From Oscillospiraceae bacterium (lineage in GTDB: Bacteria; Bacillota; Clostridia; Oscillospirales; CAG-272): a stretch of DNA of 64,000 nt. The notes below the pieces were generated by a model. It saw only the letters and a program-made list of their open reading frames with translations. It was not told the origin of the DNA and ran no database searches. The stretch spans positions 9,145-73,144 of the forward strand of contig SVSX01000003.1 of NCBI GenBank assembly GCA_015064085.1. The letters are read 5' to 3'. Below, in pieces: positions 39,993-55,604 of the stretch. Position 1 is the stretch's first letter; each line of letters opens with the position of its first letter. The position numbers and the translations under genes are program-made.

Positions 39993-40021
39993 TTGACATT
40001 TTTGCTCCGATATGATAATAT
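39993..40021 (+). promoter_or_regulatory. promoter of the large ABC cassette
   Basis: TTGACA (39993-39998), 17 nt, TGa-TAATAT (40016-40021). Leaves a leader of about 230 nt. Confidence 0.55.
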
Positions 40022-40251
40022 ATCGTTACAAAATTGCGGCAAAAACGATCCTGCGGGCTGTTGAAAGCCCGATTTCGTTTTGCCCGTTTAACAATGCAAA
40101 AAAGCATTGGTTAGTTTCGACACCGTAGCGTTTCTGCCGTATGCCGACGGTATACGCGCGTTCCGCGCGGTCGCGCTCGGTGTCAAAGCCCTTTGACGTG
40201 TCTTCCCACGTCTCTGGGTCAATTCTCAAATTCAGCAGGAGGAAAATTCAA

Positions 40252-43200
40252 ATGAGAAAGACGAAATTTCAAAGAATAACCGCTTTTGCGCTGGCTTTGG
40301 TATTTCTGCTTTGCGGTGGTGTTGGTATCAGCGCGGCTGACGTTGGATCATCCGTTACCGACACATCCTTGAGCGACATTAAGGAATTGCTGAACTCAAT
40401 TTCTTATGAGACCTACAGGGAAAACAACGCGGCAGTTCCGCGCGCAGAGGCAGAGGTGGTTATTGACGCTGCTGCGAATTATGTATTCGTGGCTGCTGAC
40501 GGCACAACTGTTTATACACAGGATTCGGTTATCGAAGAGGGTGTAGACAAGAAGAACGTAGCCTATAAGACGGAGTACGACGGCGTAAGCGGTCTGTATG
40601 TTCCCGGTATGGGTACGGTCTCCTGGACGACGGATCAGATCAAGACCGCTGCTAAGTACAGCATTGAGATCGAATACTATCCCGTTCAGAACAAGGCAGC
40701 TTCCATAGAGAGAGTATTTATGGTAAACGGCGCTGTTCCCTTTGCGGAGGCACGTTATCTGACTATCTCCAAGGTATGGAAGAACGTATATGAGGACGGC
40801 GTCTTCAAGCTCGAAGAGGGCGAGAGCGCAGAGTCTTACGTTACTAAGGCTGCGGAGCTTGGCATTAATGCTGTTTCCGAGGCGAGAAGCGACGGAACTT
40901 ACATTATATATAAAATGCCCTCCGTATGGACAAAGGATGTATCCGAGCTTGTTGATTCTCAGACTATCCGCTTCTTCAAGGAAGACATAGATAGAAACGA
41001 GATCAGAGCAAGCCTTGAGCAGGCTCCCGTATGGACCTCTTACGAGTTCCGTGATGCGAACGGCTTCTATCAGGAGTCCTTCGAGTTTGTTCTTGAGCCT
41101 GACGAGAACGGTCTTGTTACCATCTCTCTTGAGTCGGTAAACGAGCCTATCGCTATATCGAAGATCAAGCTTGTTCCTCATACGGGATATATGACCTATG
41201 AGGAGTATATCAAGCAGTACGAGAACGAGCCCGCGGGAACAGATAGAGTAAAGATAGAGGCAGAGTATTTTGCTAACGCTTCTTCTCAGACGATCTATCC
41301 TCTCGAGGACAAAGCGAGTGCTATCACCTCTCCTACGGCTACCGACAGAACTGTTCTCAACACCATAGGCGGTGAGAAGTGGCAGACTGCGGGTCAGTGG
41401 GTAACATATCAGATGCAGGTTGATGCCAGCGGTATGTACGAGATCGCGGCGCGTTACCGCCAGGCGGTGCTCGACGGTATGTTCGTATCCCGTTCACTTC
41501 ACATTTACAGTGATTCCACTGTTGCTCCCGGCGAAAAAGGATATTACAACGGCATTCCCTTTGCTGAAGCAGCTAACCTTCGCTTTGGATATTCTTCGGA
41601 TTGGCAGTCCGATACAGTTAACGACGGTGAGATAGACACATTCAAGTTCTATTTCAAGGAAGGCGTCGTTTACACGATCAAGATTGAGGTTACTCTTGGA
41701 AGTATGGGAGCGATCGTTAATACGGTCCAGAACTCTCTTGACTCGATCAACCAGGATTACCTTAATATACTTAAGCTCACAGGATCTGAGCCCGACGATA
41801 CCCGTGACTACGGCTTCTCAAGAGTAATGCCCGACACGATGGTCGACCTTATCATCCAGTCCCGCACACTTACTAAGGTTGCTGAGCAGCTCGCTGAGGT
41901 AGCGGGAGACAAGAGCTCGATGACCGCTTCTCTTGAAAAGGTCGCAAGACTTCTTGATACTATGGGTAAGGATGAGGACGAGGTCGCTAAGAACCTTGAA
42001 CAGCTCAAATCCAATATCGGTACTCTTGGTACGTGGCTCGGCGATGCGAAGACCCAGCCTCTCCAGCTTGACTTTATCGTCGTTCAGGGTGACGGACAGG
42101 AGCTCCCCGAGGCAGAAGCAAACTTCTTTAAGGCTATGGTTTACGAGTTCACGAGATTCTTCCAGAGCTTCTTCAGAAACTACGACCGTATGGGCGCTCT
42201 TGAGGAGATAGACGAGGAGGATTCCGTTGAGGTATGGCTTGCGTACGGACGTGACCAGACACAGGTTATCCGAAGCCTTATCAACAACGACTTCACACCT
42301 AAGACGAACGTTGCTGTTGACCTTAAGCTCGTTGCGGGCGGTACACTGCTTCCTTCCATTCTTTCGGGAATGGGTCCTGAGGTCTATATAGGACTCGGAC
42401 AGTCTGACGTTATCAACTACGCTATTAGAGGCGCGCTCCTTCCTATTGATAATCAGGCGACCTTTGATGACGCGATCAAGGAGTTCAACGAGGCGGCAAT
42501 GATCGTTCTCGGAATTGAGAACTCCGCAGGTGAGTTCCATTACTATGGACTCCCCGAAACACAGGCGTTTAATATGATGTTCGTTCGTGAGGACGTTCTC
42601 GCGGACCTTGAGATAGAGATCCCCAGAACATGGGATGACGTTCTTGAGGCTATCCCGATACTTCAGGCGAACAATATGATGATCGGTATGCACACCGACT
42701 ACAAGGTATTCCTTTACCAGATGAACGGTGAGCTTTATGCCGACAACGGAATGAGAATCAACCTCGATTCCAACGTTGCGCTTAACGCGTTCAACACAAT
42801 GTGTAACATGTTTACGATGTACTCATTCCCCTACAAGTATGACTTTGCAAACCGTTTCAGAACGGGTGAAATGCCTATCGGATTCGCGGCTTACGCAGCA
42901 ACCTACAACCAGCTCAAGGTATTCGCAACCGAGATCGAAGGTCTTTGGGGCTTCTACCCGATGCCCGGTTACGAGCAGGCTGACGGAAGCATCAACAATG
43001 TTTCGGTTTCCTCAGTATCCGCGATCGTTATGCTTACAGGCTGCCAGGATGAGGCTGGCGCTTGGGAATTTATGAAGTGGCATTCGGGCGCGTCCTGCCA
43101 GATCGAGTACTCCAACGAGATGGTTGCTCTTATCGGTCCTTCCGCTAAGCACTCTACCGCTAACATTGCGGCTCTTGAGAGTATGCCTTGGACGAATGAG

Positions 43201-43680
43201 GAATACATTCAGCTTTCTTACCAGTTCGATAACCTCGCTTCTATTCCTAACTACCCCGGAAGCTATATTATCGACCGTTACACCAACTTCGCGTTCCTTG
43301 ACGCATTCAACAATGCGGCAGACCCCGTAACAGAGCTTCAGAGCTACATTACGACGATCAACAAGGAGATCACACGTAAGCGTACTGAGTTTGAGCTTGA
43401 AACTCTCGATTATGTCGGACAGACACTCGCAGAGAAGAGAATGACTCAGGCAGCAGAAAAGATCGAGGAGCTTAAGACCTCCTCGGGATACACCGCAACA
43501 TACGACGCTGTCTGCCAGAGAGCGATCGACACAATGGATGGCGGTGAAACAGATGACTATGCTTCTCTCAGATCGGCAGCAGATGCTTTTGAAGAAGCAA
43601 ATGCCGAATTCTTCGCCGACGTTATCAAGTATTTGAGAAGCGCCGCAGATTCACTTGAATCGTACGAAGCATATAAATAA
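40252..43680 (+). CDS. giant secreted solute-binding protein: two CBM-like beta-sandwich modules, helical linker, family-1 SBP domain and helical tail
   Basis: AGGAGG RBS before MRKTKFQRI and a signal peptide. CBM6/35-like segment KIEAEYFANASS...GQWVTYQMQVDASGMYEIAARY. SBP core VEVWLAYGRDQTQVIRSLINNDFTPKTNVAVDLKL... Confidence 0.75.
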   Translation: MRKTKFQRITAFALALVFLLCGGVGISAADVGSSVTDTSLSDIKELLNSISYETYRENNAAVPRAEAEVVIDAAANYVFVAADGTTVYTQDSVIEEGVDKKNVAYKTEYDGVSGLYVPGMGTVSWTTDQIKTAAKYSIEIEYYPVQNKAASIERVFMVNGAVPFAEARYLTISKVWKNVYEDGVFKLEEGESAESYVTKAAELGINAVSEARSDGTYIIYKMPSVWTKDVSELVDSQTIRFFKEDIDRNEIRASLEQAPVWTSYEFRDANGFYQESFEFVLEPDENGLVTISLESVNEPIAISKIKLVPHTGYMTYEEYIKQYENEPAGTDRVKIEAEYFANASSQTIYPLEDKASAITSPTATDRTVLNTIGGEKWQTAGQWVTYQMQVDASGMYEIAARYRQAVLDGMFVSRSLHIYSDSTVAPGEKGYYNGIPFAEAANLRFGYSSDWQSDTVNDGEIDTFKFYFKEGVVYTIKIEVTLGSMGAIVNTVQNSLDSINQDYLNILKLTGSEPDDTRDYGFSRVMPDTMVDLIIQSRTLTKVAEQLAEVAGDKSSMTASLEKVARLLDTMGKDEDEVAKNLEQLKSNIGTLGTWLGDAKTQPLQLDFIVVQGDGQELPEAEANFFKAMVYEFTRFFQSFFRNYDRMGALEEIDEEDSVEVWLAYGRDQTQVIRSLINNDFTPKTNVAVDLKLVAGGTLLPSILSGMGPEVYIGLGQSDVINYAIRGALLPIDNQATFDDAIKEFNEAAMIVLGIENSAGEFHYYGLPETQAFNMMFVREDVLADLEIEIPRTWDDVLEAIPILQANNMMIGMHTDYKVFLYQMNGELYADNGMRINLDSNVALNAFNTMCNMFTMYSFPYKYDFANRFRTGEMPIGFAAYAATYNQLKVFATEIEGLWGFYPMPGYEQADGSINNVSVSSVSAIVMLTGCQDEAGAWEFMKWHSGASCQIEYSNEMVALIGPSAKHSTANIAALESMPWTNEEYIQLSYQFDNLASIPNYPGSYIIDRYTNFAFLDAFNNAADPVTELQSYITTINKEITRKRTEFELETLDYVGQTLAEKRMTQAAEKIEELKTSSGYTATYDAVCQRAIDTMDGGETDDYASLRSAADAFEEANAEFFADVIKYLRSAADSLESYEAYK

Positions 43681-43703: not shown

Positions 43704-44651
43704 ATGTCACAAAAAACGGCAGAGAAAAAGGCTGTTGCGCGCAAGGACATGACAAAGATGCAATGGACGCTTAAAGAGATCAAGCGTAATAAAGTTGCGT
43801 ATTTCATGATCGCGCCTTACATGCTCATCTTTACTTGCTTTACAGTATTGCCTGTTGTGCTTTCGATGTTTATGAGCCTTACCGACTTTAACATGTTGGA
43901 AATGCCCAATATCGTCTGGCTCGACAACTACATCAGACTCTTCCTTGATGATGACATCTTCCTTATAGCCGCTAAGAATACACTTATCTTCGCGGTGATC
44001 GTAGGACCTGTGTCTTATATCATGTCATTTATGGTGGCGTGGTTCATCAACGAATTGTCACCGAAGATAAGAGCTCTCGTAACTCTCGTCTTCTATGCAC
44101 CTTCCATTTCAGGTCAGGTTTACCTCGTATGGGCGACCCTCTTCTCGAGTGACTCCTACGGTTGGGCAAACGCTTGGCTGATGAAGCTTGGAATTATAAC
44201 AAAAGAAATAAACTTCTTCCAGGATGCGAAATACGTAATGCCTCTTTGTATCGTAGTTGCTCTCTGGACGTCTCTCGGTACTTCGTTCCTTTCCTTCATC
44301 GCGGGTCTTCAGGGTGTTGACAGAGCACTCTTTGAGGCAGGCGCTGTTGACGGAATCAAAAACAGATGGCAGGAGCTCTGGTATATCGTACTTCCCAGTA
44401 TGAGACCTCAGCTGATGTTCGGTGCGGTTATGGCTATCACCTCTTCCTTCGGCTTCGGCGGAATAGTTACCGCGCTCTGCGGCTTCCCCTCGGTTGACTA
44501 CGCGGCGCACACCATAATGCACCATCTTGATGACTACGGCTCTCAGCGTTTTGAGATCGGTTACTCATCAACGATAGCGGTTATATTGTTTGCCGTGATG
44601 ATCGGCGCAAATATGCTGGTTAAAAAAGTTCTTTCAAAGGTGGGCGAGTAA
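43704..44651 (+). CDS. sugar ABC transporter permease (MalF/LplB-like), pair 1
   Basis: LplB-type N-terminus (LKEIKRNKVAYFMIAPYML). EAA loop region ALFEAGAVDGIKNRWQELWYIVLP. Confidence 0.85.
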   Translation: MSQKTAEKKAVARKDMTKMQWTLKEIKRNKVAYFMIAPYMLIFTCFTVLPVVLSMFMSLTDFNMLEMPNIVWLDNYIRLFLDDDIFLIAAKNTLIFAVIVGPVSYIMSFMVAWFINELSPKIRALVTLVFYAPSISGQVYLVWATLFSSDSYGWANAWLMKLGIITKEINFFQDAKYVMPLCIVVALWTSLGTSFLSFIAGLQGVDRALFEAGAVDGIKNRWQELWYIVLPSMRPQLMFGAVMAITSSFGFGGIVTALCGFPSVDYAAHTIMHHLDDYGSQRFEIGYSSTIAVILFAVMIGANMLVKKVLSKVGE

Positions 44652-44652
44652 T

Positions 44653-45525
44653 ATGGCAAAGTTAAGAACAAGAAAACATAAAGTCGTACTTGCCCGTTCC
44701 GTCGGTGGTGACATGGGAATCACGGTGATACTGTTCATACTCGGTATTTTCATGTTCCTTCCTATGTATTATACGGTCATCCAGTCTCTCAAGCCTCTTG
44801 ATGAGCTCTGGATGTTCCCCCCGAGATTTTACGTAACACGTCCTACGGGCAGAAACTACACAGACCTGTTCACACTTATGGATACGTCTGTAGTACCTTT
44901 CACAAGATACATCTTCAATACCGTCTTCACATCGGTAACAGGTACATTCGGAAACCTCTTCTTCTCGTCCCTCGCGGCTTACGCAATGGCTAAGATCGCG
45001 TTCCCCGGCGGAAAGACGATGTTTAAGCTGGTAAGAACATCTCTTATGTTCCACCAGACGGTTACCGCGGTAACAAGCTTTATCCTTATGAGTGCTTTCC
45101 ATATCATCGATACATATTGGGCGATCATAATTCCTGCTTGGGCAACCTCCCTTGGACTTTACCTTATGAAGCAGTTTATGGATACCCACGTTAATGACTC
45201 GGTGCTTGAAAGTGCAAGACTTGACGGAGCGAGCGAGCTTAAGACCTGGTGGGTCATCGCAATGCCTATGGTTAAGCCCGCGTGGCTCACACTTATAATC
45301 TATTCGTTCCAGGACCTCTGGAACAGAGGCGCGTCTATCTACATTCACTCCGAGGATCTCAAGTCGTTTAACTACGCGATCCAGCAGATCACAGCCGGAG
45401 GAATCAAGCGTGCCGGTGCAAGTGCGGCGGCAACCGTTATTATGATGATGGTTCCGATACTTGTATTCGTTATAACCCAGTCTAACATCATTGAAACAAT
45501 GGGTTCGAGTGGTATGAAGGACTAA
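44653..45525 (+). CDS. carbohydrate ABC transporter permease (MalG/LplC-like), pair 1
   Basis: EAA motif ESARLDGASELKTWWVIAMPMVKP. Six TM segments. Confidence 0.85.
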   Translation: MAKLRTRKHKVVLARSVGGDMGITVILFILGIFMFLPMYYTVIQSLKPLDELWMFPPRFYVTRPTGRNYTDLFTLMDTSVVPFTRYIFNTVFTSVTGTFGNLFFSSLAAYAMAKIAFPGGKTMFKLVRTSLMFHQTVTAVTSFILMSAFHIIDTYWAIIIPAWATSLGLYLMKQFMDTHVNDSVLESARLDGASELKTWWVIAMPMVKPAWLTLIIYSFQDLWNRGASIYIHSEDLKSFNYAIQQITAGGIKRAGASAAATVIMMMVPILVFVITQSNIIETMGSSGMKD

Positions 45526-45540: not shown

Positions 45541-47772
45541 ATGAAAAAATTAACATCTATTATATGTTTGATGTTTGCGTTTGTTCTGATATTGGCTCTT
45601 CCTGTAAGCGCATCCGCGCCGTATGAGACCTATACCTACTCCATTAACGGAACAGCTCTTTCGTCACCCGACGCGTACATTCCCGTAAAAACGGTCGATG
45701 CTATCGCAATGGGTCTCAATGATGATGCAACATTTAAGGAGTTATATCCTGATCTGACAAATGCAAAGACAATTGAGGCTAAGAAGACTCTTGCAAACCC
45801 CGCAGACCTTGAGGTCGATGATCAGATGAACGTTTATATCGCTGATACCGATAATAACAGAATTCTGGTTCTTGACCGTTACTACAAGATAAAGTTCGTT
45901 ATCGAGGGATTCGTTAACGATCAGGGCGTTAAGGATGCTCTTGCAGGTCCTAAGGGTGTGTTTATCACATCCGACAAGGTCGTAAACGGTGAGGTCGTTC
46001 CCGGACGAATCTTCGTTTGCGATACAGTAAACAGCAGAATCGTAACCTTTAACCGCGACGGTGAATTCCTTGGAATAATTCCTCAGCCCGAGTCCGAGCT
46101 CTTCGAGGAAGGCGCAGTTTATAAGCCTGTTGCCGTGGCTGTTGACCAGTACGACAGAATGTATGTCGTATCCGAGACAACCTATCAGGGTATCATCGTT
46201 ATGACTGACACCGGAGAATTCACAGGATTTATCGGAGCACAGAAGGCTACTGTAGGACTTTGGGACCTTATCTGGAGAAGATTCCAGACAGAGGCTCAGA
46301 GAGCAAAGACCGATAAGGTCCTCTCAACAGAGTTCAACAACATCACCATTAATGATGGCGGATTTATCTACGTTACCACATCCTCTATCGAGGAGGCGAG
46401 CGTTGCTTCCGCTATCAACAGTAAGAGTAAGAGCGGTGAGTACGCTCCCGTTAAGATGCTCAACGCGGCAGGTGAGGAGATCATGAGACGTAACGGTTTC
46501 TATCCTCCTTCCGGTGAAGTTGATATGGCAAAGGCAAAGGTAACCGACACCGCTCTTGGTCCGTCCAAGATCGTTGACGTTGCCATAGGTCCTGAGCAGA
46601 CCTGGTCGATCATAGACCAGAAGCGAAGCAAGGTGTTCACATATGACTATGACGGAAACCTCCTCTTCGCGTTCGGTGATACGGGTGAACAGCTCGGTAA
46701 TATCACATCCCAGGGACTTAACGCGATCGTATATCAGGGCGACACAATGCTTCTCCTTGATAAGACCGCAAAGTCTATTTCGGTTTTCCAGCGTACAGAG
46801 TATGGTGATATCATCGTAAAGGCACTTGAAAACCAGAACAACCGCCAGTATGATAAGTCGATTGACGACTGGATGGAGATCCTTAAGAGAAACTCTAACT
46901 TTGACGCAGCTTACATCGGAATCGGAAACGCTCTTTACAGAAGCGGTCAGTTCGAGGAAGCTATCGAGTATTACAAGGCTGCATACGATACAGAAAACTA
47001 CTCCAACGCATACAAGGAGCTCAGAAAAGAGTGGATCTCCAAGTATATCATTTGGATCCCGATCGTTGCTATCGCTATTATCGTCGCTTGGTCAAAGTTT
47101 ATGAAGTTTGCCAAGAAGGTCAATAAGCGTACAGCGACCGCGGGCGGAAAACGTACATACGTTCAGGAATTGCTCTACGTGTTCCACGTAATGTTCCATC
47201 CCTTTGACGGCTTCTGGGATATGAAGCACGAGAAGAGAGGTTCGGTAAGAGCAGGTGCAACGATCCTTGTTATAGCACTTGCGGCATTCTACTACCAGAA
47301 TATCGGTTCGGGTTACATTAACAATCCTCAGGAGATCTATGGAACGATCTTCTCCGTATCCCTCGGAGTTATCATTCCTCTCGTTCTCTGGATTGTCGCA
47401 AACTGGTGTCTCACAACACTGTTCGACGGAGAGGGAAGCATCAAGGATATCTTTATAGCAACAACATACTCCTTAGCTCCTCTCGTTCTCTGTATGGTTC
47501 CCGCAACCATCGCGTCCAACTTCGTTGTCGCTGCAGAAGCTGATATCGTCAGCCTGCTTGTAACACTTGGATTTATCTGGGCAGGACTTCTCATATTCCT
47601 CGGAATGATGGTCACACACGACTACTCCCTTGGAAAGAACGTTCTCACCAGCCTTGGAACAATCGTTGGAATGGTTTGCATAATGTTTATAGCAATACTC
47701 TTCACAACACTTTTGGGCAAGCTCGTAAGCTTTGTTTCCAACATCGTTATCGAGCTCCAGTACCGAGCGTAA
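45541..47772 (+). CDS. secreted NHL-repeat beta-propeller, TPR and C-terminal Yip1-type polytopic membrane domain protein
   Basis: Signal peptide. About six NHL-like blades (VYIADTDNNRILVLD, IFVCDTVNSRIVTFNRDGEF ...). TPR-like YRSGQFEEAIEYYKAAY. C-terminal five-TM Yip1-like region (FHPFDGFW...). Confidence 0.7.
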   Translation: MKKLTSIICLMFAFVLILALPVSASAPYETYTYSINGTALSSPDAYIPVKTVDAIAMGLNDDATFKELYPDLTNAKTIEAKKTLANPADLEVDDQMNVYIADTDNNRILVLDRYYKIKFVIEGFVNDQGVKDALAGPKGVFITSDKVVNGEVVPGRIFVCDTVNSRIVTFNRDGEFLGIIPQPESELFEEGAVYKPVAVAVDQYDRMYVVSETTYQGIIVMTDTGEFTGFIGAQKATVGLWDLIWRRFQTEAQRAKTDKVLSTEFNNITINDGGFIYVTTSSIEEASVASAINSKSKSGEYAPVKMLNAAGEEIMRRNGFYPPSGEVDMAKAKVTDTALGPSKIVDVAIGPEQTWSIIDQKRSKVFTYDYDGNLLFAFGDTGEQLGNITSQGLNAIVYQGDTMLLLDKTAKSISVFQRTEYGDIIVKALENQNNRQYDKSIDDWMEILKRNSNFDAAYIGIGNALYRSGQFEEAIEYYKAAYDTENYSNAYKELRKEWISKYIIWIPIVAIAIIVAWSKFMKFAKKVNKRTATAGGKRTYVQELLYVFHVMFHPFDGFWDMKHEKRGSVRAGATILVIALAAFYYQNIGSGYINNPQEIYGTIFSVSLGVIIPLVLWIVANWCLTTLFDGEGSIKDIFIATTYSLAPLVLCMVPATIASNFVVAAEADIVSLLVTLGFIWAGLLIFLGMMVTHDYSLGKNVLTSLGTIVGMVCIMFIAILFTTLLGKLVSFVSNIVIELQYRA

Positions 47773-47791
47773 ACAGATAGGAGGAAGAAAA

Positions 47792-50700
47792 ATGATGATA
47801 AAAAGAATACTTTCGACCTTTTTAGCTGTGATTATGCTTATGGGATCATTTGCGGTCCTTACCTTCGCTGAGGAAGGCGCAGGTGAAACGACAGAGACAG
47901 AAAAGGTAGAATATACATACAATACCACGTCAGAAAAGCCCTCGATGGACTACCTTAAGGGTATGACTATCGTAGAGCTTGACAAAGACGGTAATCCCGT
48001 TGTTGAGGGAGCAGTACCTACTCCCATCGTAACAAAGGAAGATAAGCTCGCAACCATGGACCTTCGCTTCGAGAAGGACGGCTACCGCCTTTACGTAGAC
48101 GCCTACAGCGGAGAGGTCGCAACTGTTTGCGTAGCAACGGGTGAAATACTCTTCACAAACCCTTATAACACGGGAAGCCAGAAGGCACAGCCCGAAATTA
48201 AGGAAAAGCTGCTCTCCCAGATCGTCGTTAAGTATGCCGACAAGGCAAACAACGGTGAGACCAAGGAGTTCTACAGCTTTGAGGAAACAATTCAGGGTGA
48301 GTCGGATGATACCCCTTACCCTCCCAGCCAGATCGACGTAAAGAATATCAAGAACGGTATTCGTGTTGAGTACACGATCGGTCGTGAAGAGGCAAGAATG
48401 CTTCTTCCTATGCAGATCGAAAAGTCTGCTTTCGAGACCAAGATCCTCGAGGTTATGGCATCCAACCTTGATGACGGAGTAAAGAACTTCACATACAGAC
48501 AGTTCGAATCCTTCTACAGACTTCAGGACCCCGATGCAGCGCCCAGTGAGGAAATGAGAAAGCTTATGCTGGATCTTTACCCCATCACAAAGAAGATGGA
48601 CGTTTATATACTCGATTCCTCCCTCACGTCCGTTAAGAAGGCAAGAGCAGAGTCCTACATCAAGACCTACTGCCCCAGCTACACTTACGAGCATCTGGAA
48701 GAGGACCATCTCTACGCAGAATATGAGGCTAAGGACGAGAATCCTCCTCTGTTCAAGATGGCACTTGAGTATACTCTCGGAACTGACGGAGTTAGCGTAA
48801 GACTTCCTTCGAACGGTATCCGTTTCAATGAGTCGCTCTACCAGCTCGAGCATATCGAGATCCTCCCCTTTATGGGTGCGGGTGCTAACCCCAACGCGGG
48901 TTATACCTTCTATCCCGACGGATCGGGCGCTCTCTTCGATTTCCAGAAGATAGCTAACTCGGGTACAAAGACCGTCGTTACGGGTAAGATATACGGTCAG
49001 GACTACGTTTACCACGAGATCATAGGTAAGCATCAGGAGATCGTAAGATATCCTGTATTCGGACTCGTTGAGACCGAAAGCTACGTTGTAACAAAGGATA
49101 CCGGAAAGGTAGATCCCGAAACGAACACTGCTATTACCGAGGAAGTAACAGAATATCAGGATCGCGGATTCTTCGCGATAGTTGAAGAGGGTGAGGCTCT
49201 TATGGAGCTGACCACCGAGCATGAGGTCAAGCAGCATCCCTTCAATACAGTTAAAATGAAGGTTCGTCCCAGACCTTCCGACAAGTATAACGTCGCGGAC
49301 GCTATCTCTGTTGGTGAAAACAAGGAATTTACCGTTGTTTCGCCCAGAAAGTACGCGGGAAGCTTCAAGGTCAAGTATATTATGCTGACCGATGAGGACC
49401 TTGCTAAGGAAAAGGGACTTGAGAACACATACGATACCGATTATATGGGAATGGCTAAGGCATACAGAGATTATCTCGAAAAGAACGGCACTCTTACCAG
49501 ACTCACAGAAGAGGATGTATCCGAGGATATTCCTCTCTACATCGAGACATTCGGTGCTCTCGAAACAACAAAGAAGGTTCTTTCCATCCCTGTAAGCACA
49601 ATGGCTCCTCTTACATCCTTTGAGGATATCAAGACGATGCACAAGGAGCTCAGCGCAGAGGGCGTAAAGAATATCAACTTTATCCTTACAGGCTATACCA
49701 AGGGCGGTATGACCGAGATCGCTTATCCTTCTGATCTTAAGTGGGAAAAGGCGGTCGGCGGTGAGGAAGGATTCGAGGATCTCGTTGCTTACGCAAAAGA
49801 GAACAAGATCGGAATATTCCCCGACTTTGACTTCGTATTCCTCGCAAACAACACACTTACAGACGGCGTAAGCCTTAAGAATCACGCTGTTAAGACTATC
49901 GATAACAGATATACAAGTAAGCGTGTTTACAGTGCTACCAAGCAGACACACATAAGCTACTATGAGCTTGCGATCTCTCCCGCATATTTCCACGAGTTCT
50001 ATGAGGGCTTCACTGAGAAATATCTCGAGAGCGATCCTATCGGTATTTCGGTTTCAACTCTCGGATATTATCTTAACTCCGACTTTGACGAGGATGAGCC
50101 TTACAACCGTGAGGACTCCAAGGAGTTCACCATTGACGCGTTCAAGCACTTTGATGAGAAATACTCCAAGGTAATGACCTCAGGCGGTAACTCCTACTCT
50201 TGGAAGTACGTTGACTACATTACCGACGTTGCTCTTGACTCCAGCCGTTACGCTCAGGCAGCGGCATCTGTACCTTTCCTTGGAATCGTTCTCCACGGTT
50301 ACGTTCAGATCGCGGGAACACCTATCAATATGGAAGGTAACATCGATTACACCCTTCTTAAGGCAATCGAAAACGGCGCATCGCTCAACTTTATCCTTTC
50401 TTATCAGAACACAGACCTCCTCAAGGAGTCTGTAATATACAACCAGTATTACTCTGTAAGATATGATATCTGGTTCAGCGACGTTGTAAACCTTTATAAT
50501 GAGCTTAACGCACTCCTTAAGGATCTTCAGACGAGCGTTATCGTTGACCACAAGTTCCTTGTAGGTGAGCGTGTTCCCGATGCGGATGAGCTTGAGGCTG
50601 ATGCTCGCGCAGAGCTTGAAGCGGCAATAGAGCTTGAAAAGGCTCTCAAGGAAGCTGCTACAGAGAGTGAGAGAAAGGCGATCCGCGCGGCACTCGACGG

Positions 50701-51382
50701 AATTGTTACAAACACAAATCAGGTATCCACATACCTCAGCTCGATAGAGACAAAGCTCGTGTCTCTCGCAAAATATGATTTCGATGCCGCAATGGCAGCT
50801 GTTGACGCAGCAAAGCTTGCTTACGATGCAGACGTTAATTCCGCTGATCTCAAGAAGGCGTATGAAGATGCAGTAACCGCTGCAACCAATACACTTAATA
50901 TGATCTACGGATACGCGGAGGGTATTTCAACCGACGCTCAGTTTGCAGATCGTTACCAGGGATTTGCTAAGGAAAACATAGACTTCATTATTGCAAACTC
51001 CAAGCTTAGCGATGCTGTCATCAATGACTACCAGCTCGTTGTTGACGCAAGTGCTGCAGTAAATGCTCAGATCCAGGCAAAGGCTGCTGATATAAAGGCT
51101 ATCGCAGTTGCTGCATACGAAAAGATCAAGGTTCACGAGACCACAACAGCTAAGCCCTTCGAGGATAAGCTTATAAATCCTGTAACTCCTCCTCCCGCAG
51201 GAACGGTAGAGGAAGAGGAGAAGCCTGTTTCCAGATATATTTCTGACGACAACAAGATCATTCTTGTTTCGTACAGCAATGGAACATCCTTCATTCTTAA
51301 CTTCAACGATTACGACATTACAACAGTCGTAAACGATACAGTTTACACAGTCGTATCTTACGGATACGTTGTACTCAAATAA
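47792..51382 (+). CDS. 1196-aa secreted protein of unknown function (possibly DUF5696-like, possible glycosidase-like core) with Ala/Asp/Glu-rich helical C-terminal region
   Basis: GGAGGAAG RBS before MMIKRIL and a signal peptide. Central region with IGIFPDFDFVF, SGGNSYSWKY, FLGIVLHGY. C-terminal ~250 aa helical, then a small beta domain. Confidence 0.6.
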   Translation: MMIKRILSTFLAVIMLMGSFAVLTFAEEGAGETTETEKVEYTYNTTSEKPSMDYLKGMTIVELDKDGNPVVEGAVPTPIVTKEDKLATMDLRFEKDGYRLYVDAYSGEVATVCVATGEILFTNPYNTGSQKAQPEIKEKLLSQIVVKYADKANNGETKEFYSFEETIQGESDDTPYPPSQIDVKNIKNGIRVEYTIGREEARMLLPMQIEKSAFETKILEVMASNLDDGVKNFTYRQFESFYRLQDPDAAPSEEMRKLMLDLYPITKKMDVYILDSSLTSVKKARAESYIKTYCPSYTYEHLEEDHLYAEYEAKDENPPLFKMALEYTLGTDGVSVRLPSNGIRFNESLYQLEHIEILPFMGAGANPNAGYTFYPDGSGALFDFQKIANSGTKTVVTGKIYGQDYVYHEIIGKHQEIVRYPVFGLVETESYVVTKDTGKVDPETNTAITEEVTEYQDRGFFAIVEEGEALMELTTEHEVKQHPFNTVKMKVRPRPSDKYNVADAISVGENKEFTVVSPRKYAGSFKVKYIMLTDEDLAKEKGLENTYDTDYMGMAKAYRDYLEKNGTLTRLTEEDVSEDIPLYIETFGALETTKKVLSIPVSTMAPLTSFEDIKTMHKELSAEGVKNINFILTGYTKGGMTEIAYPSDLKWEKAVGGEEGFEDLVAYAKENKIGIFPDFDFVFLANNTLTDGVSLKNHAVKTIDNRYTSKRVYSATKQTHISYYELAISPAYFHEFYEGFTEKYLESDPIGISVSTLGYYLNSDFDEDEPYNREDSKEFTIDAFKHFDEKYSKVMTSGGNSYSWKYVDYITDVALDSSRYAQAAASVPFLGIVLHGYVQIAGTPINMEGNIDYTLLKAIENGASLNFILSYQNTDLLKESVIYNQYYSVRYDIWFSDVVNLYNELNALLKDLQTSVIVDHKFLVGERVPDADELEADARAELEAAIELEKALKEAATESERKAIRAALDGIVTNTNQVSTYLSSIETKLVSLAKYDFDAAMAAVDAAKLAYDADVNSADLKKAYEDAVTAATNTLNMIYGYAEGISTDAQFADRYQGFAKENIDFIIANSKLSDAVINDYQLVVDASAAVNAQIQAKAADIKAIAVAAYEKIKVHETTTAKPFEDKLINPVTPPPAGTVEEEEKPVSRYISDDNKIILVSYSNGTSFILNFNDYDITTVVNDTVYTVVSYGYVVLK

Positions 51383-51401
51383 TTAAAGGGAGGTAATGAA
51401 A

Positions 51402-52355
51402 ATGACAAAAGACGTAAAAGTAAAAGCACCCAAAAAGAGAAAATCAGCCTCCCTTGAAAGACGTAAGGCGCGTGGCGGATGGATATTTGTCGCACCCTTC
51501 GTTATCGGATTTTTGCTGATCTACCTTCCTATGGTAGTTGATTCGATCACATACAGCTTTAACACAATTAAGGTCATCCCCGGCGTAGGATATGAGCTTA
51601 TTCCTGTTGGATGGGCAAACTACTACGAAGCGCTCTTCGATGACCCCGACTACCTGCAGACCCTTATCAAGGGATTGCAGACACTCGCCCTTGACGTTCC
51701 TATGATAATCATCTTCTCGCTCTTTATGGCGGTTCTTCTGAACCAGAAGATGGCAGGACGCGCGGCGTTCAGAGCGATCTTCTTCCTCCCCGTTATTCTT
51801 TCAACGGGTATTATGGAGGAGATCAGAGCATCCAACGCATTTACCGAGTACGCGGGAAGCACTGAGGGTATCGACGACGGATCGGGACAGAACGCATCCT
51901 CCGAGATCGTTTCCTCGATGGACGTTGAGCGACTCTTCTCGGGAATGGCAGTTGGTGAAGGACTTGTTGAGTACGTAGCTCAGGCAATCAACAACATTTA
52001 CAACATTGTAAACCGTTCAGGTGTACAGATGCTTATATTCCTTTCGGGTCTTCAGTCTATCTCTCCCGCTATCTATGAGTCGGTTCAGATCGACGGAGCA
52101 ACCGCTTGGGAGACCTTCTGGAAGATAACATTCCCGATGATAACGCCTATGATCCTAGTTAACGTGGTCTATACGATCATTGACTCGTTTACGACCAACT
52201 CCAACCAGGTCATGGTATTTATCCAGAATATGTACACAGAGAACAACGTTCTCAGCTCTGCAATGGCGTGGATTTATTTCCTGGTAGTAATACTGATCCT
52301 TGCTGTGGTATCTGCCATTATGTCGGCATTCGTATTCTACCAGAGACGTGATTGA
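51402..52355 (+). CDS. sugar ABC transporter permease (MalF-like), pair 2
   Basis: GGGAGG RBS. Basic N-terminus then TMs. EAA region YESVQIDGATAWETFWKITFPMITP. The alternative ATG at 51396 is too close to the RBS. Confidence 0.8.
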   Translation: MTKDVKVKAPKKRKSASLERRKARGGWIFVAPFVIGFLLIYLPMVVDSITYSFNTIKVIPGVGYELIPVGWANYYEALFDDPDYLQTLIKGLQTLALDVPMIIIFSLFMAVLLNQKMAGRAAFRAIFFLPVILSTGIMEEIRASNAFTEYAGSTEGIDDGSGQNASSEIVSSMDVERLFSGMAVGEGLVEYVAQAINNIYNIVNRSGVQMLIFLSGLQSISPAIYESVQIDGATAWETFWKITFPMITPMILVNVVYTIIDSFTTNSNQVMVFIQNMYTENNVLSSAMAWIYFLVVILILAVVSAIMSAFVFYQRRD

Positions 52356-52368
52356 GAGGAGGATAACA

Positions 52369-53484
52369 ATGAACGCACAACAGATCGATAATAAGCCGAA
52401 GGTACAGAAAGAGTCTAAGAATAAAATAAGAGTTGAGTTTGAGAGAACACCTCTTAAAGAAAGACTCAAGGCTAAATTCCTCTCATTGTTCTTCCTTAAG
52501 AAGGTAGTTTGGTACATCTTCAGACTTGTTCTTCTTATTGGTATCGCGTACGTGGTACTTTTCCCCTTCTTCTCCGAGGTCGCGGGCTCAATAATGGCGC
52601 CTCAGGACTTCAAGGACGTTGAAGTTAGACTTATTCCTAAGAATTTTTCACTTGATATCTACAAAGCAATATGGACCGAGCTTGAGTACGTAAAGGCGTT
52701 TACCAATACCCTCATTCTCGCACTTGTAACGGCTTTGATCCAGACCTTCATATGCAGCTTCGTTGCATACGGTCTCGCAAAGTTTAAGTTCAAGGGCAAC
52801 AAGCTTGTATTCTTTGCAGTTATCTTCTCGCTGGTAGTTCCTCATCAGACACTTCAGCTCTCGCTCTTTATGGAGTTCCGTTATTTCGATATTCTCGGAA
52901 TAGCAAAGCTGCTCAACGGCGGCGGAATCGAGCTCTTCGGACGCACATTCCTTCAGTCGATAGACGTGATCCCCGATTCGTGGAAGCTCTTCACACCCGG
53001 TGGAATTACACTTACAAACACCTATTGGCCTTGGATAATCCTCTCCCTTTCGGGTCTCGCGTTTAAGAACGGTCTTTACATCTTCTTGCTCAGACAGTTC
53101 TTCAAGGGCGTTCCCGATGAGCTTGAGGAGTCGGCGTACATGGACGGCTCGGGTATTATAAAGACATTCTTCTCTATAATCCTGCCTCTTTCCGTGCCTA
53201 TGATGATCACGGTATTCCTCTTCGCCTTCTCTTGGCAGTGGACAGATACCTTCTACACAGACACATTCTTCACGATCCAGGATAAGGCAAAGCTCCTTCC
53301 CAAGATCGTTGGAATTCCCGACTCTCTTTCGGGAGTGGTCGACCCCGCTTACCAGAATCTCTACTATGCGGCGATCAGAAACACCTGCGGAATTATGATA
53401 ATAGCTCCGCTGGTCGTACTCTATCTCTTCTGCCAGAGATTCCTTGTTCAGGGTATCGAGCGTTCGGGACTTACAGCGGATTGA
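52369..53484 (+). CDS. carbohydrate ABC transporter permease (MalG-like) with long N-terminal extension, pair 2
   Basis: GAGGAGG RBS before MNAQQID. EAA region ESAYMDGSGIIKTFFSIILPLSVP. Confidence 0.8.
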   Translation: MNAQQIDNKPKVQKESKNKIRVEFERTPLKERLKAKFLSLFFLKKVVWYIFRLVLLIGIAYVVLFPFFSEVAGSIMAPQDFKDVEVRLIPKNFSLDIYKAIWTELEYVKAFTNTLILALVTALIQTFICSFVAYGLAKFKFKGNKLVFFAVIFSLVVPHQTLQLSLFMEFRYFDILGIAKLLNGGGIELFGRTFLQSIDVIPDSWKLFTPGGITLTNTYWPWIILSLSGLAFKNGLYIFLLRQFFKGVPDELEESAYMDGSGIIKTFFSIILPLSVPMMITVFLFAFSWQWTDTFYTDTFFTIQDKAKLLPKIVGIPDSLSGVVDPAYQNLYYAAIRNTCGIMIIAPLVVLYLFCQRFLVQGIERSGLTAD

Positions 53485-53522: not shown

Positions 53523-53557
53523 CCCACGGTTTCTTTACGAAGCCGTGGGCTTTTTTT
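53523..53557 (+). terminator. rho-independent terminator ending the ABC cassette
   Basis: CCCACGGTTTC / GAAGCCGTGGG stem followed by a TTTTTTT run. Confidence 0.8.
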
Positions 53558-53639: not shown

Positions 53640-53776
53640 ATAATTATATATGTGTCATAAGATGCGATAGTGTTTTACGTTATTGTGATATATAAGAAAA
53701 GCAGTCAGGTGAAGGAAGGTCCTTTATATGATTGCATTCAGCTCAGGAATTCAAATTAAAACAAGGAGGTGTCATA

Positions 53777-55327
53777 ATGGAATTATGGGGTTGGATCTTG
53801 CTTGTTGGCGCGTGTATCCTTACAACTGTTGTCGGTATCGTGATCGGAATAGTGATCCGTAAAAGTATCGGTGAAAGAAAAATAGGATCAGCGGAAAACG
53901 AAGCAAAACGAATAAGAGACGATGCGGCAAAAGAAGCCGAGTCGATGAAAAAAGAAGCGCTTATCAGTGCGAAGGAAGATATTCTGCGTCAGAGAAATGA
54001 GGCGGAAAAGGAACTTAAAGAACGAAGAACCGAAATAACAAGAACCGAGAGAAGAATCTCCCAGAAGGAAGAAAATCTTGACAAAAAGGCAGAGGGACTT
54101 GAGCGTAAGAACGAACAGCTTGATAAAAAGCTCAAGGAGAACGATGCCGTAAGAGAGCAGATAAACGCACTGCTTAAAAAAGAAGAGGAGGTTCTCGAAA
54201 AGATCGCCGGTATTTCGGCTGATGAGGCGAAGGAGGAGCTTATAACCAGAGTTGAGTCTGAGGTAAAGAACGAGCTTGCTCAGCGCCTTGCCGACCTTGA
54301 GGCAAAATTCAAGGAGGAAGCCGATACAAAGGCAAAGAACATAATCTCTCTCGCAATTCAGCGTTGTGCCGCGGATCACGTGGCTGAAACGACTATCTCG
54401 GTCGTGTCGCTTCCCAACGAGGATATGAAGGGAAGAATAATCGGACGAGAGGGAAGAAACATTCAGATGATAGAAAAGCTGACGGGTATCGAGCTTATAA
54501 TCGACGATACACCCGAGGCGATCACACTTTCGGGATTTGATCCCGTCAGAAGAGAAGTGGCAAGGATCACCCTTGAGAAGCTCATTTCCGACGGAAGAAT
54601 ACATCCCTCGAGAATTGAGGAGACCGTTGAAAAGGCAACTAAGGAGGTCGAAACAACGATCAAGCAGGCAGGAGAGAGGGCAACCTTTGACGTGGGAATC
54701 CACGGCATAAATCCTGAGCTTGTGAAAATGCTCGGACGTCTGAGATTCCGTACAAGCTACGGTCAAAACGTACTGAAGCACTCAATTGAGGTGGCGCTTA
54801 TAGCGGGAATGATAGCTGACGAGCTCGGAGTTGACAGCACCCTTGCCAAGAGAGCGGGACTGCTTCACGACATCGGTAAAGCGCAGACCCACGAGATGGA
54901 GGGCTCACATATTGAGCTCGGTGTAAATCTCGCAAAGAGATATAAAGAAAACCGCGATGTTATTCACGCAATCGAGGCTCACCACGGCGACGTGGAGGCT
55001 AAAACGATCACGGCAGTTATAGTCCAGGCGGCAGATGCGATATCGGCTGCGAGACCCGGAGCGCGCCGCGAGGATCTTGAGAATTATATCAAGAGACTTG
55101 AAAAGATCGAGGAAATTGCGAAGGGCTTCTCGGGAGTAGAAAAGGCATTTGCTGTTCAGGCGGGCAGAGAGATACGCGTTATGGTTAAACCCGAAGAGGT
55201 CAACGACGCGGGAATGACTGTTATCGCAAGAGAAATGGCAGCAAAGATCCAGGAAGAGGTCAACTACCCCGGACAGATCAAGATAAACGTCATAAGAGAA
55301 AGCCGCGCGATCGATTACGCAAAGTAA
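53777..55327 (+). CDS. rny: ribonuclease Y
   Basis: AGGAGG RBS before MELWGW. N-terminal TM, long coiled coil, KH domain ([12 protein letters not shown]) and HD domain (LLHDIGKA ... IEAHHGD). Confidence 0.93.
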
Positions 55328-55601: not shown

Positions 55602-55604
55602 ATA

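What the first reader, a model, noticed from the sequence alone, without database searches (positions are those of the whole stretch)
47792..51382. 1196-aa secreted protein with unassigned catalytic-looking core and an Ala/Asp/Glu-rich helical tail resembling the helical segments of the binding protein
No glycoside hydrolase signature is recognisable by eye. The central region does have conserved-looking aromatic and acidic patches (IGIFPDFDFVF, MTSGGNSYSWKYVDY, VPFLGIVLHGYVQIAG) that suggest a TIM-barrel-like enzyme. From memory it may belong to the DUF5696 group, but I cannot verify that. The last ~300 residues form long helices (ADELEADARAELEAAIELEKALKEAATE ... AAVNAQIQAKAADIKAIAVAAYEKI) followed by a Pro/Glu linker and a small beta domain. 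Similar low-complexity helical segments occur in the giant SBP, which could mediate assembly of the two proteins at the cell surface.
Basis: inference. Interest (0 to 1): 0.6.

Follow-up and report, generated by a model that had tools for sequence, protein, structure and literature searches.

The report
GH129-like glycosidase with helical insertion
The 1196-residue secreted protein is a distant relative of known sugar-cleaving enzymes (GH129-type α-glycosidases, filed in Pfam as 'DUF5696'); it carries an unusual long helical arm and sits in a seven-gene sugar-import operon conserved across hundreds of uncultured gut Clostridia, and its substrate is still unknown.

Summary
The ORF is real (47792-51382, strong RBS, 1196 aa, signal peptide). 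DUF5696 is not wholly uncharacterised. The solved, assayed Zobellia exo-α-1,3-(3,6-anhydro)-D-galactosidase DagB/ZgGH129 (PDB 5opq) carries the same Pfam domain and is the best fold match (Foldseek E=3e-24), followed by the GH129 α-GalNAc-ase NagBb (8e-21), then GH101, GH31 and GH36.

The protein appears collinear with DagB from residue ~85 to the C-terminus. The 'tail' is therefore a ~225-residue helical insertion inside the conserved C-terminal β-domain. Relatives carry 5 to 1455 residues at that same loop.

An acidic cluster (D764/D766/E767/D768) sits on the nucleophile strand. The canonical β5 acid/base (NagBb E478 = DagB E517) is Ser797 here, and Asp812 on β6 appears reciprocally.

The gene lies in an invariant operon: giant binding protein, 2 permeases, NHL-TPR-Yip1 protein, DUF5696, 2 permeases. 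The claimed similarity of the helical region to the binding protein is not supported.

Verdict: a new variant of a known enzyme kind, of moderate interest. Substrate and activity are untested.

The parts
39993..40021 (+). Promoter-like site (TTGACA-17-TAATAT with TG) upstream of the operon. It follows a strong terminator at 39472-39508 that closes the SufC/SufD-like genes.
40249..43680 (+). Giant extracellular solute-binding protein (about 1143 aa counted from Met37 of the ORF that starts at 40141). It has an SPase-I-type signal peptide and no conserved lipobox. This copy has no Pfam hit, but orthologues hit SBP_bac_1/SBP_bac_8.
43704..45525 (+). First CUT1-type permease pair: P1 (43704-44651, UgpA/MalF-like) and P2 (44653-45525, UgpE/MalG-like).
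45541..47772 (+). 743-aa membrane protein with a signal peptide, an NHL beta-propeller, a TPR region, and a C-terminal multi-span Yip1 domain.
47780..47784 (+). Shine-Dalgarno sequence GGAGG, 7 nt upstream of the ATG.
47792..47869 (+). Signal peptide (aa 1-26, ...LTFA|EE). Cleavage by signal peptidase I is inferred. There is no lipobox Cys (7/101 homologues have any Cys in this region).
47870..48043 (+). Low-complexity N-terminal linker rich in Thr, Glu and Pro (aa 27-84), with no DagB counterpart.
48044..49426 (+). N-terminal beta-sandwich domain (aa 85-545), collinear with the DagB N-domain (aa 30-299) but with insertions. Anchors: FEKDGYRLYVDAYSGEVATVCVATGEILFTNPYN matches LENGKLNINIDSKTGCFSVTEKTSGHVWKSDPWE; CPSY matches CPSY; RPxxxYN matches RPxxxYN.
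49427..50536 (+). (beta/alpha)8 catalytic barrel (aa 546-915), the core of Pfam DUF5696.
50081..50095 (+). Acidic cluster D764-F-D766-E767-D768 on and just after the short strand 764-765. It aligns to the DagB nucleophile strand D483..D486 and to NagBb D430..D435. This is the candidate nucleophile (D766 most likely, by spacing and strand end).
50180..50182 (+). Ser797, the last residue of beta5. It occupies the position of the acid/base of NagBb (E478) and DagB (E517). This position is D/E in 101 of 144 family representatives.
50225..50227 (+). Asp812, immediately after beta6 and next to the residue aligned with DagB E531. It is acidic when 797 is not (reciprocal pattern). This is the candidate relocated acid/base.
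50537..50581 (+). First strands of the C-terminal beta-domain (aa 916-930, including invariant H920, which aligns with DagB H630).
50582..51130 (+). Helical insertion (aa 931-1113). It has four helices that probably form an antiparallel bundle or stalk about 9 nm long. Its sequence and length are hypervariable among relatives.
51131..51232 (+). Pro/Glu-rich flexible linker (aa 1114-1147) that returns the chain to the beta-domain.
51233..51382 (+). Remaining strands of the C-terminal beta-domain (aa 1148-1196) plus the stop codon. They are homologous to the DagB C-terminal Ig-like domain (YISDDNK..YSNGTSFILNFN..YGY matches YLSADFK..FSSGTEVIVNLG..YGY).
51396..53484 (+). Second CUT1-type permease pair: P3 (51396-52355, MalF/UgpA-like) and P4 (probable start ATG at 52369, ending 53484, MalG/UgpE-like).
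53523..53549 (+). Strong intrinsic terminator (11-bp stem, 7 GC pairs, T-run) that ends the seven-gene operon.

Best explanation
The gene encodes a secreted, roughly 130-kDa enzyme of the GH129-like / Pfam DUF5696 lineage. It has an N-terminal beta-sandwich, a (beta/alpha)8 barrel and a C-terminal beta-domain, and it appears collinear with the characterised exo-alpha-glycosidase DagB (ZgGH129).

Most likely mechanism (inferred): it removes an alpha-linked sugar from an extracellular glycan by a retaining double-displacement reaction. The nucleophile would be a carboxylate in the D764-D768 cluster at the end of barrel strand beta4, most likely D766. The general acid/base in this clade would be D812 on beta6, because the canonical beta5 position is Ser797.

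The products would then be captured by the co-transcribed giant binding protein and imported through two CUT1-type permease pairs, powered by an ATPase encoded elsewhere.

The 'Ala/Asp/Glu-rich tail' is a roughly 225-residue amphipathic helical bundle inserted into one loop of the C-terminal beta-domain. It is a dispensable element of variable length (0 to about 1450 residues in relatives). It most plausibly acts as a spacer, oligomerisation arm or docking arm, not as part of the catalytic machinery.

Shown here: gene, family, fold, collinearity, insertion architecture, residue conservation and operon conservation. Inferred: activity, stereochemistry, catalytic residue roles, substrate and the role of the stalk.
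For: Family: PF18952 E=1.2e-136 over aa 303-923.

Link to a characterised enzyme: ZGAL_3152/DagB (P0274, PDB 5opq) is named 'DUF5696 domain-containing protein' and carries PF18952. A DagB-like barrel half scores 47.6 bits against a cutoff of 25.6. DagB is an exo-alpha-1,3-(3,6-anhydro)-D-galactosidase; D202, D486, E517 and E531 are essential (PMC5698469), and its activity was reconfirmed in PMC10958521.

Fold: the full-length model has pLDDT 80 and the core model has pLDDT 88.9, pTM 0.86. Foldseek gives 5opq E=3.1e-24, NagBb 7.7e-21 (TM 0.69), GH101 about 1e-12, and GH31/GH36 about 1e-10.

Collinearity: hhalign E=1.2e-3 and 1.9e-4 over 506 columns. HMM hits on beta5-beta8, the N-terminus and the C-terminus are consistent with it.

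Active-site conservation over 144 representatives at 50% clustering: D497 144, R773 144, N800 144, H835 143, E860 142, D764 131, D766 128.

Acid/base: NagBb E478 = DagB E517 = position 797. The 797/812 pattern is reciprocal (95 acid/non-acid, 23 non-acid/acid, 6 both, 20 neither; Fisher p=6e-10, uncorrected for phylogeny). The model places S797 at the end of beta5 and D812 just after beta6.

Insertion: in 145/147 representatives the beta-motif is at the very C-terminus, with 5-1455 residues between barrel and motif.

Operon: the gene order is identical in all 83 loci and in L087, L089 and L090. Terminators and a promoter-like site bracket it. The permeases are CUT1-like.
Against: No activity was measured and the substrate is unknown. 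Sequence identity to DagB and NagBb is about 10%. The Pfam GH129 model (PF11308) does not match the protein even at E<=10.

The residue-level alignment of the nucleophile strand has low posterior confidence, and I could not superpose coordinates. Two of the four residues essential in DagB (E517, E531) are not conserved at the aligned positions (S797, T811). The counterpart of the fourth, D202, could not be placed.

The 797/812 co-variation is not corrected for phylogeny. The operon contains no ABC ATPase, no regulator and no second CAZyme, so the link from enzyme product to transporter rests on operon membership alone.
Confidence: 0.62

Rival explanations
1. It is a pseudo-enzyme: a glycan-binding or scaffold protein that keeps the GH129-like fold but no longer hydrolyses. 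It would present substrate to the transporter or organise the surface complex.
For: The canonical acid/base position is Ser797, and DagB E531 aligns with Thr811. The gene occupies the slot just upstream of a permease pair, where a binding-protein gene would normally sit.
Against: Polar and acidic residues on the catalytic face of the barrel are almost invariant across 144 divergent representatives (D497, R773, N800, H835, E860 at or above 142/144; D764 and D766 about 90%). Position 797 loses its acid only when Asp appears at 812. That pattern points to relocation of the acid rather than decay.
Confidence: 0.12
2. It is an active enzyme with different chemistry. It could be a transglycosylase, phosphorylase or lyase, or a hydrolase that needs no general acid because its substrate has a good leaving group (for example a phosphodiester-linked glycan).
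For: The usual beta5 acid/base is absent. From general knowledge, not tested here: fold relatives in GH31 include alpha-glucan lyases and transglycosylases. Many invariant basic residues (K701, R706, K710, R711, K717, R773, R819) lie in conserved loops and could bind an anionic substrate.
Against: All close fold matches are hydrolases. D812 offers a plausible replacement acid. Nothing in the operon suggests phosphate or nucleotide-sugar chemistry.
Confidence: 0.12
3. One reading: the helical region resembles helical segments of the giant binding protein, and this resemblance drives assembly of the two proteins at the cell surface.
For: Neither protein has a conserved lipobox. The enzyme has no second hydrophobic segment, and no Pfam anchor domain was found in either protein, so some protein-protein tethering is needed. 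Raw lengths of the two proteins correlate (rho 0.48-0.58). A TPR-bearing membrane protein is encoded between them.
Against: The sequences are not similar (best E=0.13). The length correlation vanishes in 32 nearest-neighbour contrasts. Relatives with a 5-33-residue 'insertion' keep the same operon. The insertion's sequence is only 20% conserved, against 66% for the core.
Confidence: 0.08
4. The operon does not forage dietary or host glycans. Instead it recycles or remodels a glycan of the cell's own envelope (capsule, wall polysaccharide), with the enzyme trimming it and the transporter recovering the sugars.
For: The operon sits among housekeeping genes (Fe-S assembly upstream, AlaRS or RNase Y downstream). 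No regulator or other CAZyme is linked in 86 loci. It is present in at least 256 species-level genomes of one lineage. No riboswitch was found.
Against: This is purely contextual. The large binding protein and the CUT1 permeases are equally typical of nutrient uptake. The characterised relatives act on exogenous glycans.
Confidence: 0.15

Closest known systems
DagB / ZgGH129 (ZGAL_3152), exo-alpha-1,3-(3,6-anhydro)-D-galactosidase of Zobellia galactanivorans; PDB 5opq, 8rzk
   Same: Both belong to the same Pfam family, PF18952. DagB is the best fold match (E=3e-24). The domain order is the same and the two proteins appear collinear from N-domain to C-terminal beta-domain. Both have the double-acid nucleophile strand, and the beta7 His is conserved (H556/H835).
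   Different: Identity is about 10%. DagB is 693 aa, periplasmic and encoded in a Bacteroidota carrageenan PUL. This protein is 1196 aa with a 225-aa helical insertion, larger N-domain inserts and a long basic loop (aa 684-730), and it is encoded in a Clostridia ABC operon. DagB E517 and E531 correspond to S797 and T811 here, with D812 adjacent.
NagBb, GH129 alpha-N-acetylgalactosaminidase of Bifidobacterium bifidum; PDB 5wzn/5wzp
   Same: It is the second-best fold match (E=8e-21, TM 0.69 on the target). It is a gut-bacterial retaining alpha-glycosidase. Its nucleophile strand has two Asp residues (D430, D435), and its acid/base E478 aligns with DagB E517 and position 797.
   Different: No sequence-level match was detected, and the Pfam GH129 model does not hit this protein. 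The acid/base is not conserved (Ser797). NagBb is a 640-residue chain with no helical insertion.
GH101 endo-alpha-N-acetylgalactosaminidases (EngBF 2zxq, SpGH101 5a55) and clan GH-D-like enzymes (GH31 YihQ, GH36 alpha-galactosidases, Flavonifractor galactosaminidase 8x1b)
   Same: They share the beta-sandwich plus (beta/alpha)8 architecture of retaining alpha-glycosidases (E from 1e-12 to 1e-9).
   Different: The matches are much weaker, there is no sequence relationship, and the catalytic residue positions differ.
Gram-positive CUT1 ABC oligosaccharide importers with associated extracellular glycosidases
   Same: The binding protein and the MalF/MalG-like permeases are co-transcribed with a secreted glycosidase, and the ATPase is encoded elsewhere.
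   Different: The system has two permease pairs for one binding protein. The binding protein is about 1140 aa and has no conserved lipobox. An NHL-TPR-Yip1 membrane protein is always present. The gene order is invariant over at least 86 loci.

Membership tests
Pfam PF18952 (DUF5696) | Score above the curated gathering threshold of the family HMM | tested here: met
   457.2 bits against a cutoff of 25.6, E=1.2e-136, aa 303-923 on model positions 8-576 of 612.
CAZy GH129 (sensu NagBb and ZgGH129) | N-terminal beta-sandwich, (beta/alpha)8 barrel and C-terminal beta-domain architecture | tested here: met
   Foldseek gives 5opq E=3.1e-24 and 5wzp 7.7e-21, with TM 0.62-0.69 on the target. Collinear profile alignments agree.
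CAZy GH129 (sensu NagBb and ZgGH129) | Sequence-level recognition by the GH129 family model (Pfam PF11308, used as a proxy; dbCAN was not available) | tested here: not met
   No PF11308 hit on the whole protein or on pieces at E<=10. DagB-clade proteins do hit it, weakly.
CAZy GH129 (sensu NagBb and ZgGH129) | Catalytic nucleophile Asp at the end of beta4 (NagBb D435 / DagB D486) | tested here: inconclusive
   hhalign puts D764 on D483 and D766/E767/D768 around D486, but with low posterior confidence. The spacing from D766 to T796 is 30 residues, the same as from D486 to T516. The model has a strand at 764-765. D764 and D766 are conserved in about 90% of 144 representatives. No coordinate superposition was possible.
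CAZy GH129 (sensu NagBb and ZgGH129) | General acid/base Glu at the end of beta5 (NagBb E478 / DagB E517) | tested here: not met
   The aligned residue is Ser797. It is D/E in 101 of 144 relatives. Asp812 appears reciprocally.
CAZy GH129 (sensu NagBb and ZgGH129) | Retaining exo-alpha-glycosidase activity | not testable with these tools
   This requires an enzyme assay and NMR of the products.
CUT1-type ABC carbohydrate importer operon | Extracellular solute-binding protein plus a MalF/MalG-like permease pair | tested here: met
   BPD_transp_1 hits on four ORFs (three above the cutoff). The best NCBIfam similarities are to UgpA/UgpE, MalF/MalG and GlcT/GlcU, all below the equivalog cutoffs. 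Binding-protein orthologues hit SBP_bac_1/SBP_bac_8.
CUT1-type ABC carbohydrate importer operon | Cognate ABC ATPase | tested here: not met
   There is no ATPase gene between the terminators at 39508 and 53523. The upstream ABC ATPase is SufC-like and is separated from the operon by a terminator. Use of a shared ATPase is an inference.
Coiled coil / helical bundle | Helices with heptad-type (about 3.5-residue) hydrophobic periodicity | tested here: met
   Helices 931-1113 have pLDDT 82-92. Periodicity z=7.1 in the window protein, family median 3.4, and 73% of homologues exceed z=2. Profile hits go only to unrelated coiled coils.

The most novel reading that the evidence does not exclude
The seven-gene unit encodes an undescribed type of Gram-positive surface glycan-harvesting machine. 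Neither the GH129-like enzyme nor the roughly 1140-aa binding protein has a conserved lipobox, and the enzyme has no other hydrophobic segment or recognised anchor domain. In this reading both are held at the membrane by the NHL-TPR-Yip1 protein and feed two CUT1 permease pairs. The enzyme's coiled-coil arm, which ranges from 0 to about 1450 residues between species, sets how far the catalytic head reaches through the wall or capsule. In this clade the enzyme also uses a relocated acid/base (D812) and may have a new alpha-glycosidase specificity.
Probability: 0.12. Interest if true: 0.7.

Novelty: new variant of a known kind. Interest (0 to 1): 0.45.

Why it matters
DUF5696 is a very large family: 3886 clusters at 50% identity, and at least 256 species-level genomes for this subfamily alone. 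Pfam still labels it as of unknown function, and no paper in the searched library mentions it.

Tying it explicitly to the solved, assayed GH129-like enzyme DagB gives the whole family a testable mechanism. It also marks a clade of uncultured ruminant and human gut Clostridia as carrying a conserved, probably constitutive alpha-glycoside harvesting and import system with an unknown substrate.

Two features make good experimental entry points. One is the reciprocal 797/812 acid switch. The other is the length-hypervariable helical insertion at one fixed loop. Together they allow study of how active sites re-wire and how Gram-positive bacteria position surface enzymes.

Tried and rejected
1. Sequence searches against the PDB with the protein and with the family profile found only coiled-coil noise on the helical region and nothing for the core.

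2. Pfam scans of five sub-fragments at E<=10 gave no GH-family hit apart from DUF5696 and a non-significant Cellulase (GH5) hit at E=0.09.

3. Searches for 'DUF5696' and 'PF18952' in papers returned zero hits. A Yip1/ABC/glycosidase search returned one irrelevant paper.

5. I tried to rebuild ZGAL_3152 from the OCR text of a supplementary figure. The text was corrupt, and the homology search with it returned only fragments. It did lead indirectly to a split DagB-like gene in Dyadobacter and from there to the true 5opq sequence.

6. hhalign in global mode failed. Direct HMM-to-sequence scores between the two clades are weak, at most 12 bits.

7. My first by-eye alignment, which put D816/E848/E860 on DagB D486/E517/E531 on the basis of spacing, was rejected once the beta7 motif PLFNLVYH / PFLGIVLH fixed the register.

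8. The idea of a separate N-terminal CBM was rejected, because aa 85-135 align to the very start of the DagB N-domain.

9. The length co-variation between the insertion and the binding protein was significant in raw form but vanished in nearest-neighbour contrasts.

10. Rfam found no riboswitch or leader upstream of the operon.

11. The very long relatives (2159-2545 aa) carry no additional Pfam domains that could hint at anchoring or substrate.

12. The flank survey found no linked regulator or CAZyme.

Full report
**Observation**

The ORF at 47792-51382 (+) is real. It translates without interruption to 1196 aa. A GGAGG site lies 7 nt upstream of the ATG, and the gene starts 19 nt after the stop codon of the preceding gene. 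The only hydrophobic segment is the N-terminal signal peptide, aa 6-24 followed by TFA|EE. Homologues are abundant: 1933 at E<=1e-5 in the word-indexed search, and 3886 clusters at 50% identity in the exhaustive search with the core alone.

**Family**

Pfam PF18952 (DUF5696) matches aa 303-923 with E=1.2e-136. NCBIfam has no model for the protein. No paper in the library contains 'DUF5696' or 'PF18952'. Sequence and profile searches of the PDB find nothing for the core.

**Fold**

A full-length AlphaFold2 model (pLDDT 80, pTM 0.73) and a second model of aa 85-935 built on a more diverse alignment (pLDDT 88.9, pTM 0.86) were searched against the PDB with Foldseek. The ranking of matches was:
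- Best: the 3,6-anhydro-D-galactosidase of Zobellia galactanivorans (5opq/8rzk), E=3.1e-24.
- Then: GH101 endo-alpha-GalNAc-ases, the Flavonifractor galactosaminidase, GH31 sulfoquinovosidase and MYORG, and GH36 alpha-galactosidases.

All are retaining alpha-glycosidases built from a beta-sandwich plus a (beta/alpha)8 barrel.

**DUF5696 has a characterised member**

While looking for GH129 sequences I found that the barrel half of a DagB-like gene from Dyadobacter scores 47.6 bits on PF18952 (cutoff 25.6) and 25.2 bits on the GH129 model PF11308. ZGAL_3152 itself, the protein in 5opq, is named 'DUF5696 domain-containing protein' and carries PF18952.

That enzyme, DagB or ZgGH129, is an exo-alpha-1,3-(3,6-anhydro)-D-galactosidase. 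It has an N-terminal beta-sandwich (35-299), a TIM barrel (300-620) and a C-terminal Ig-like domain (621-693). Mutating D202 (contributed by the other monomer), D486, E517 or E531 inactivates it (PMC5698469). Its activity was confirmed again in PMC10958521. The link is implicit in the databases, but I did not find it stated in any paper searched.

**Collinearity with DagB**

Profile-profile comparison of my family (A1) with a DagB-clade alignment (A3) gives E=1.2e-3 over beta1-alpha2 and E=1.9e-4 over 506 columns with a greedier setting. Three independent alignments agree with it:
- The beta5-beta8 block (MTxGGN..Y.D....SS...P..G.VLHG aligned to GTEHGQ..YFD......APLFNLVYH).
- The N-terminus: aa 85-135 align to DagB 30-80, with N123-P124-Y125 on D68-P69-W70.
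- The last 48 residues: aa 1148-1194 align to DagB model positions 632-675.

The protein therefore appears to be one DagB-like chain from about aa 85 to the end, with insertions. There is no separate N-terminal carbohydrate-binding module.

**The 'tail' is an insertion**

The conserved terminal strands belong to the C-terminal beta-domain that starts at about aa 916. The helices (931-1113) and the Pro/Glu linker (1114-1147) therefore interrupt that domain.

Across 147 representatives, 145 have the beta-motif at the very C-terminus (median 3 residues after it). The segment between barrel and motif ranges from 5 residues, as in DagB, to 1455 residues, and is always poor in Pro and Gly. Among close homologues it is 197-493 residues long and 20% conserved, against 66% for the core.

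It is genuine amphipathic helix. It has pLDDT 82-92, 2% Pro+Gly, and 3.5-residue periodicity with z=7.1 (family median 3.4). Profile and fold hits go only to generic coiled coils and three-helix bundles. A relative without any insertion (P0248) has the same operon, so the insertion is accessory.

**Active site**

Over 144 representatives the catalytic face of the barrel is nearly invariant: D497, R773 and N800 in 144/144; H835 in 143; E860 and N846 in 142; D764 in 131; D766 in 128.

The nucleophile strand shows the same double-acid pattern in all three lineages:
- NagBb: GIVLD430CAYLD435.
- DagB: LEAD483ITD486.
- This protein: LNSD764FD766E767D768.

In the better model D764-F765 form a short strand. 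D766 is 30 residues before T796, exactly as D486 is 30 residues before T516. I therefore favour D766 as the nucleophile, but the per-residue alignment confidence is low and I could not inspect coordinates.

The acid/base of NagBb (E478) aligns with DagB E517 and with position 797. That position is D/E in 101 of 144 representatives but Ser in this protein and its clade. Position 812, directly after beta6 and next to the residue aligned with DagB E531, shows the reciprocal pattern. The counts are 95 with acid at 797 only, 23 with acid at 812 only, 6 with both and 20 with neither (Fisher p=6e-10, not corrected for phylogeny). The simplest reading is that the general acid/base has moved from beta5 to beta6 (D812) in this clade. 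This is an inference. The alternatives are loss of hydrolysis or a different chemistry.

**Genomic context**

The gene is the fifth of seven tightly spaced genes:
1. A giant binding protein (about 1143 aa).
2. Permease P1.
3. Permease P2.
4. An NHL-TPR-Yip1 membrane protein.
5. DUF5696.
6. Permease P3.
7. Permease P4.

The block is bracketed by a strong terminator and a promoter-like site upstream and a strong terminator downstream. The order is identical in all 83 loci first examined. Incomplete cases are consistent with the order running off a contig or flank end. The order also holds at 43-44% identity with unrelated flanks.

The subfamily occurs in at least 256 species-level genomes. The 80 loci returned were almost all uncultured Clostridia/Eubacteriales MAGs from ruminant and human guts. 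The permeases are CUT1-like, giving two MalF/MalG-type pairs. The operon contains no ATPase, regulator, riboswitch or second CAZyme, and none is recurrently linked to it. The recurrent neighbours are Fe-S assembly genes and AlaRS. Neither the enzyme nor the binding protein has a conserved lipobox; both have Ala-X-Ala-type cleavage sites.

**The assembly hypothesis**

The helical region has no sequence similarity to the binding protein (best E=0.13). Lengths of the two proteins correlate in raw form (rho 0.58 in 28 loci; 0.48 in 63 loci; binding-protein C-tail 0.54). In 32 independent nearest-neighbour pairs the differences do not correlate (C-tail rho=-0.01; total 0.20, not significant). Some protein-mediated tethering is still needed, because neither protein has a recognisable anchor.

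**Conclusion**

The finding is a real, well-conserved gene. It is best described as a divergent GH129-like (DUF5696) alpha-glycosidase-type enzyme that carries a length-variable helical insertion and belongs to a conserved ABC import operon of uncultured gut Clostridia. Family, fold, architecture and context are shown. Activity, substrate, catalytic residue roles and the function of the stalk are inferred and need experiments.

Noticed in passing
window 40249-43680 (+): The 'giant SBP' has no significant Pfam or NCBIfam hit in this genome, although orthologues hit SBP_bac_1/SBP_bac_8. Its first ~600 residues contain two regions that look by eye like CBM6/35-type beta-sandwiches (for example 'IEAEYFANASS...GQWVTYQMQVDASGMYEIAARYRQ'). 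Only 7 of 65 orthologues have a strict lipobox, which is unusual for a Gram-positive ABC binding protein.
   Followed up: partly
window 43704-45525 and 51396-53484 (+): There are two complete MalF/MalG-like permease pairs but only one binding protein and no ATPase in the operon. DUF5696 occupies the position just upstream of the second pair, where a binding-protein gene would normally sit. P1 resembles P3 and P2 resembles P4 only weakly (E from 1e-8 to 1e-10).
   Followed up: partly
window 45541-47772 (+): A 743-aa protein with a signal peptide, an NHL beta-propeller, a TPR region, one TM segment and a multi-span Yip1 domain is present in every locus, between the first permease pair and DUF5696. 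Its role is unknown. From memory only: Yip1-family YknW partners with an ABC system in Bacillus subtilis.
   Followed up: no
window 37835-39467 (+), terminator 39472-39508: A SufC-like ABC ATPase and a SufB/D-like protein lie directly upstream of the operon. The same pair, or NifS/NifU, recurs upstream in more than 24 related loci. A strong terminator separates them from the operon, so this is probably inherited synteny rather than a functional link.
   Followed up: partly
window 47792-51382, aa 403-415, 496-519, 684-730, 761-773: In the first AlphaFold model, the lowest-confidence loops were exactly the segments richest in invariant residues (D404, Y407, H408, D497, Y499, D691, H698, D704, R706, Y707, D764, D766, N772, R773). 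They became confident only with a more diverse alignment. The 684-730 loop is strongly basic (K696, K701, R706, K710, R711, K717) and has no counterpart in DagB.
   Followed up: partly
window 47930-49993 (-): A 687-aa ORF lies antisense to the DUF5696 gene, and similar long antisense ORFs lie opposite neighbouring genes. It is most likely a by-product of codon composition and was not examined further.
   Followed up: no
window 55527-55793 (-): Three tandem tRNA genes lie downstream of RNase Y (53732-55327). They are the only Rfam gathering-level hits in the window.
   Followed up: no
window 52300-52369 (+): The start of the fourth permease is ambiguous. The mechanical ORF begins at a TTG that overlaps the end of P3. 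An ATG at 52369 (MNAQQIDNK...) fits the orthologue lengths of 371-386 aa better.
   Followed up: partly
L084 4001-6099 (Dyadobacter jejuensis QGDT01000012.1): The DagB-like gene of this genome is split into two overlapping ORFs of 221 aa and 478 aa. This is either a frameshift or a pseudogene. It sits next to restriction-system genes and a SASA-family esterase gene.
   Followed up: no
relatives P0146, P0140, P0136, P0126 (2159-2545 aa): Some relatives carry 1150-1455 residues of Pro/Gly-poor, A/E/K/L/D/Q-rich sequence at the same insertion point, with no other Pfam domain. If this forms an antiparallel coiled coil it would be on the order of 100 nm long.
   Followed up: partly
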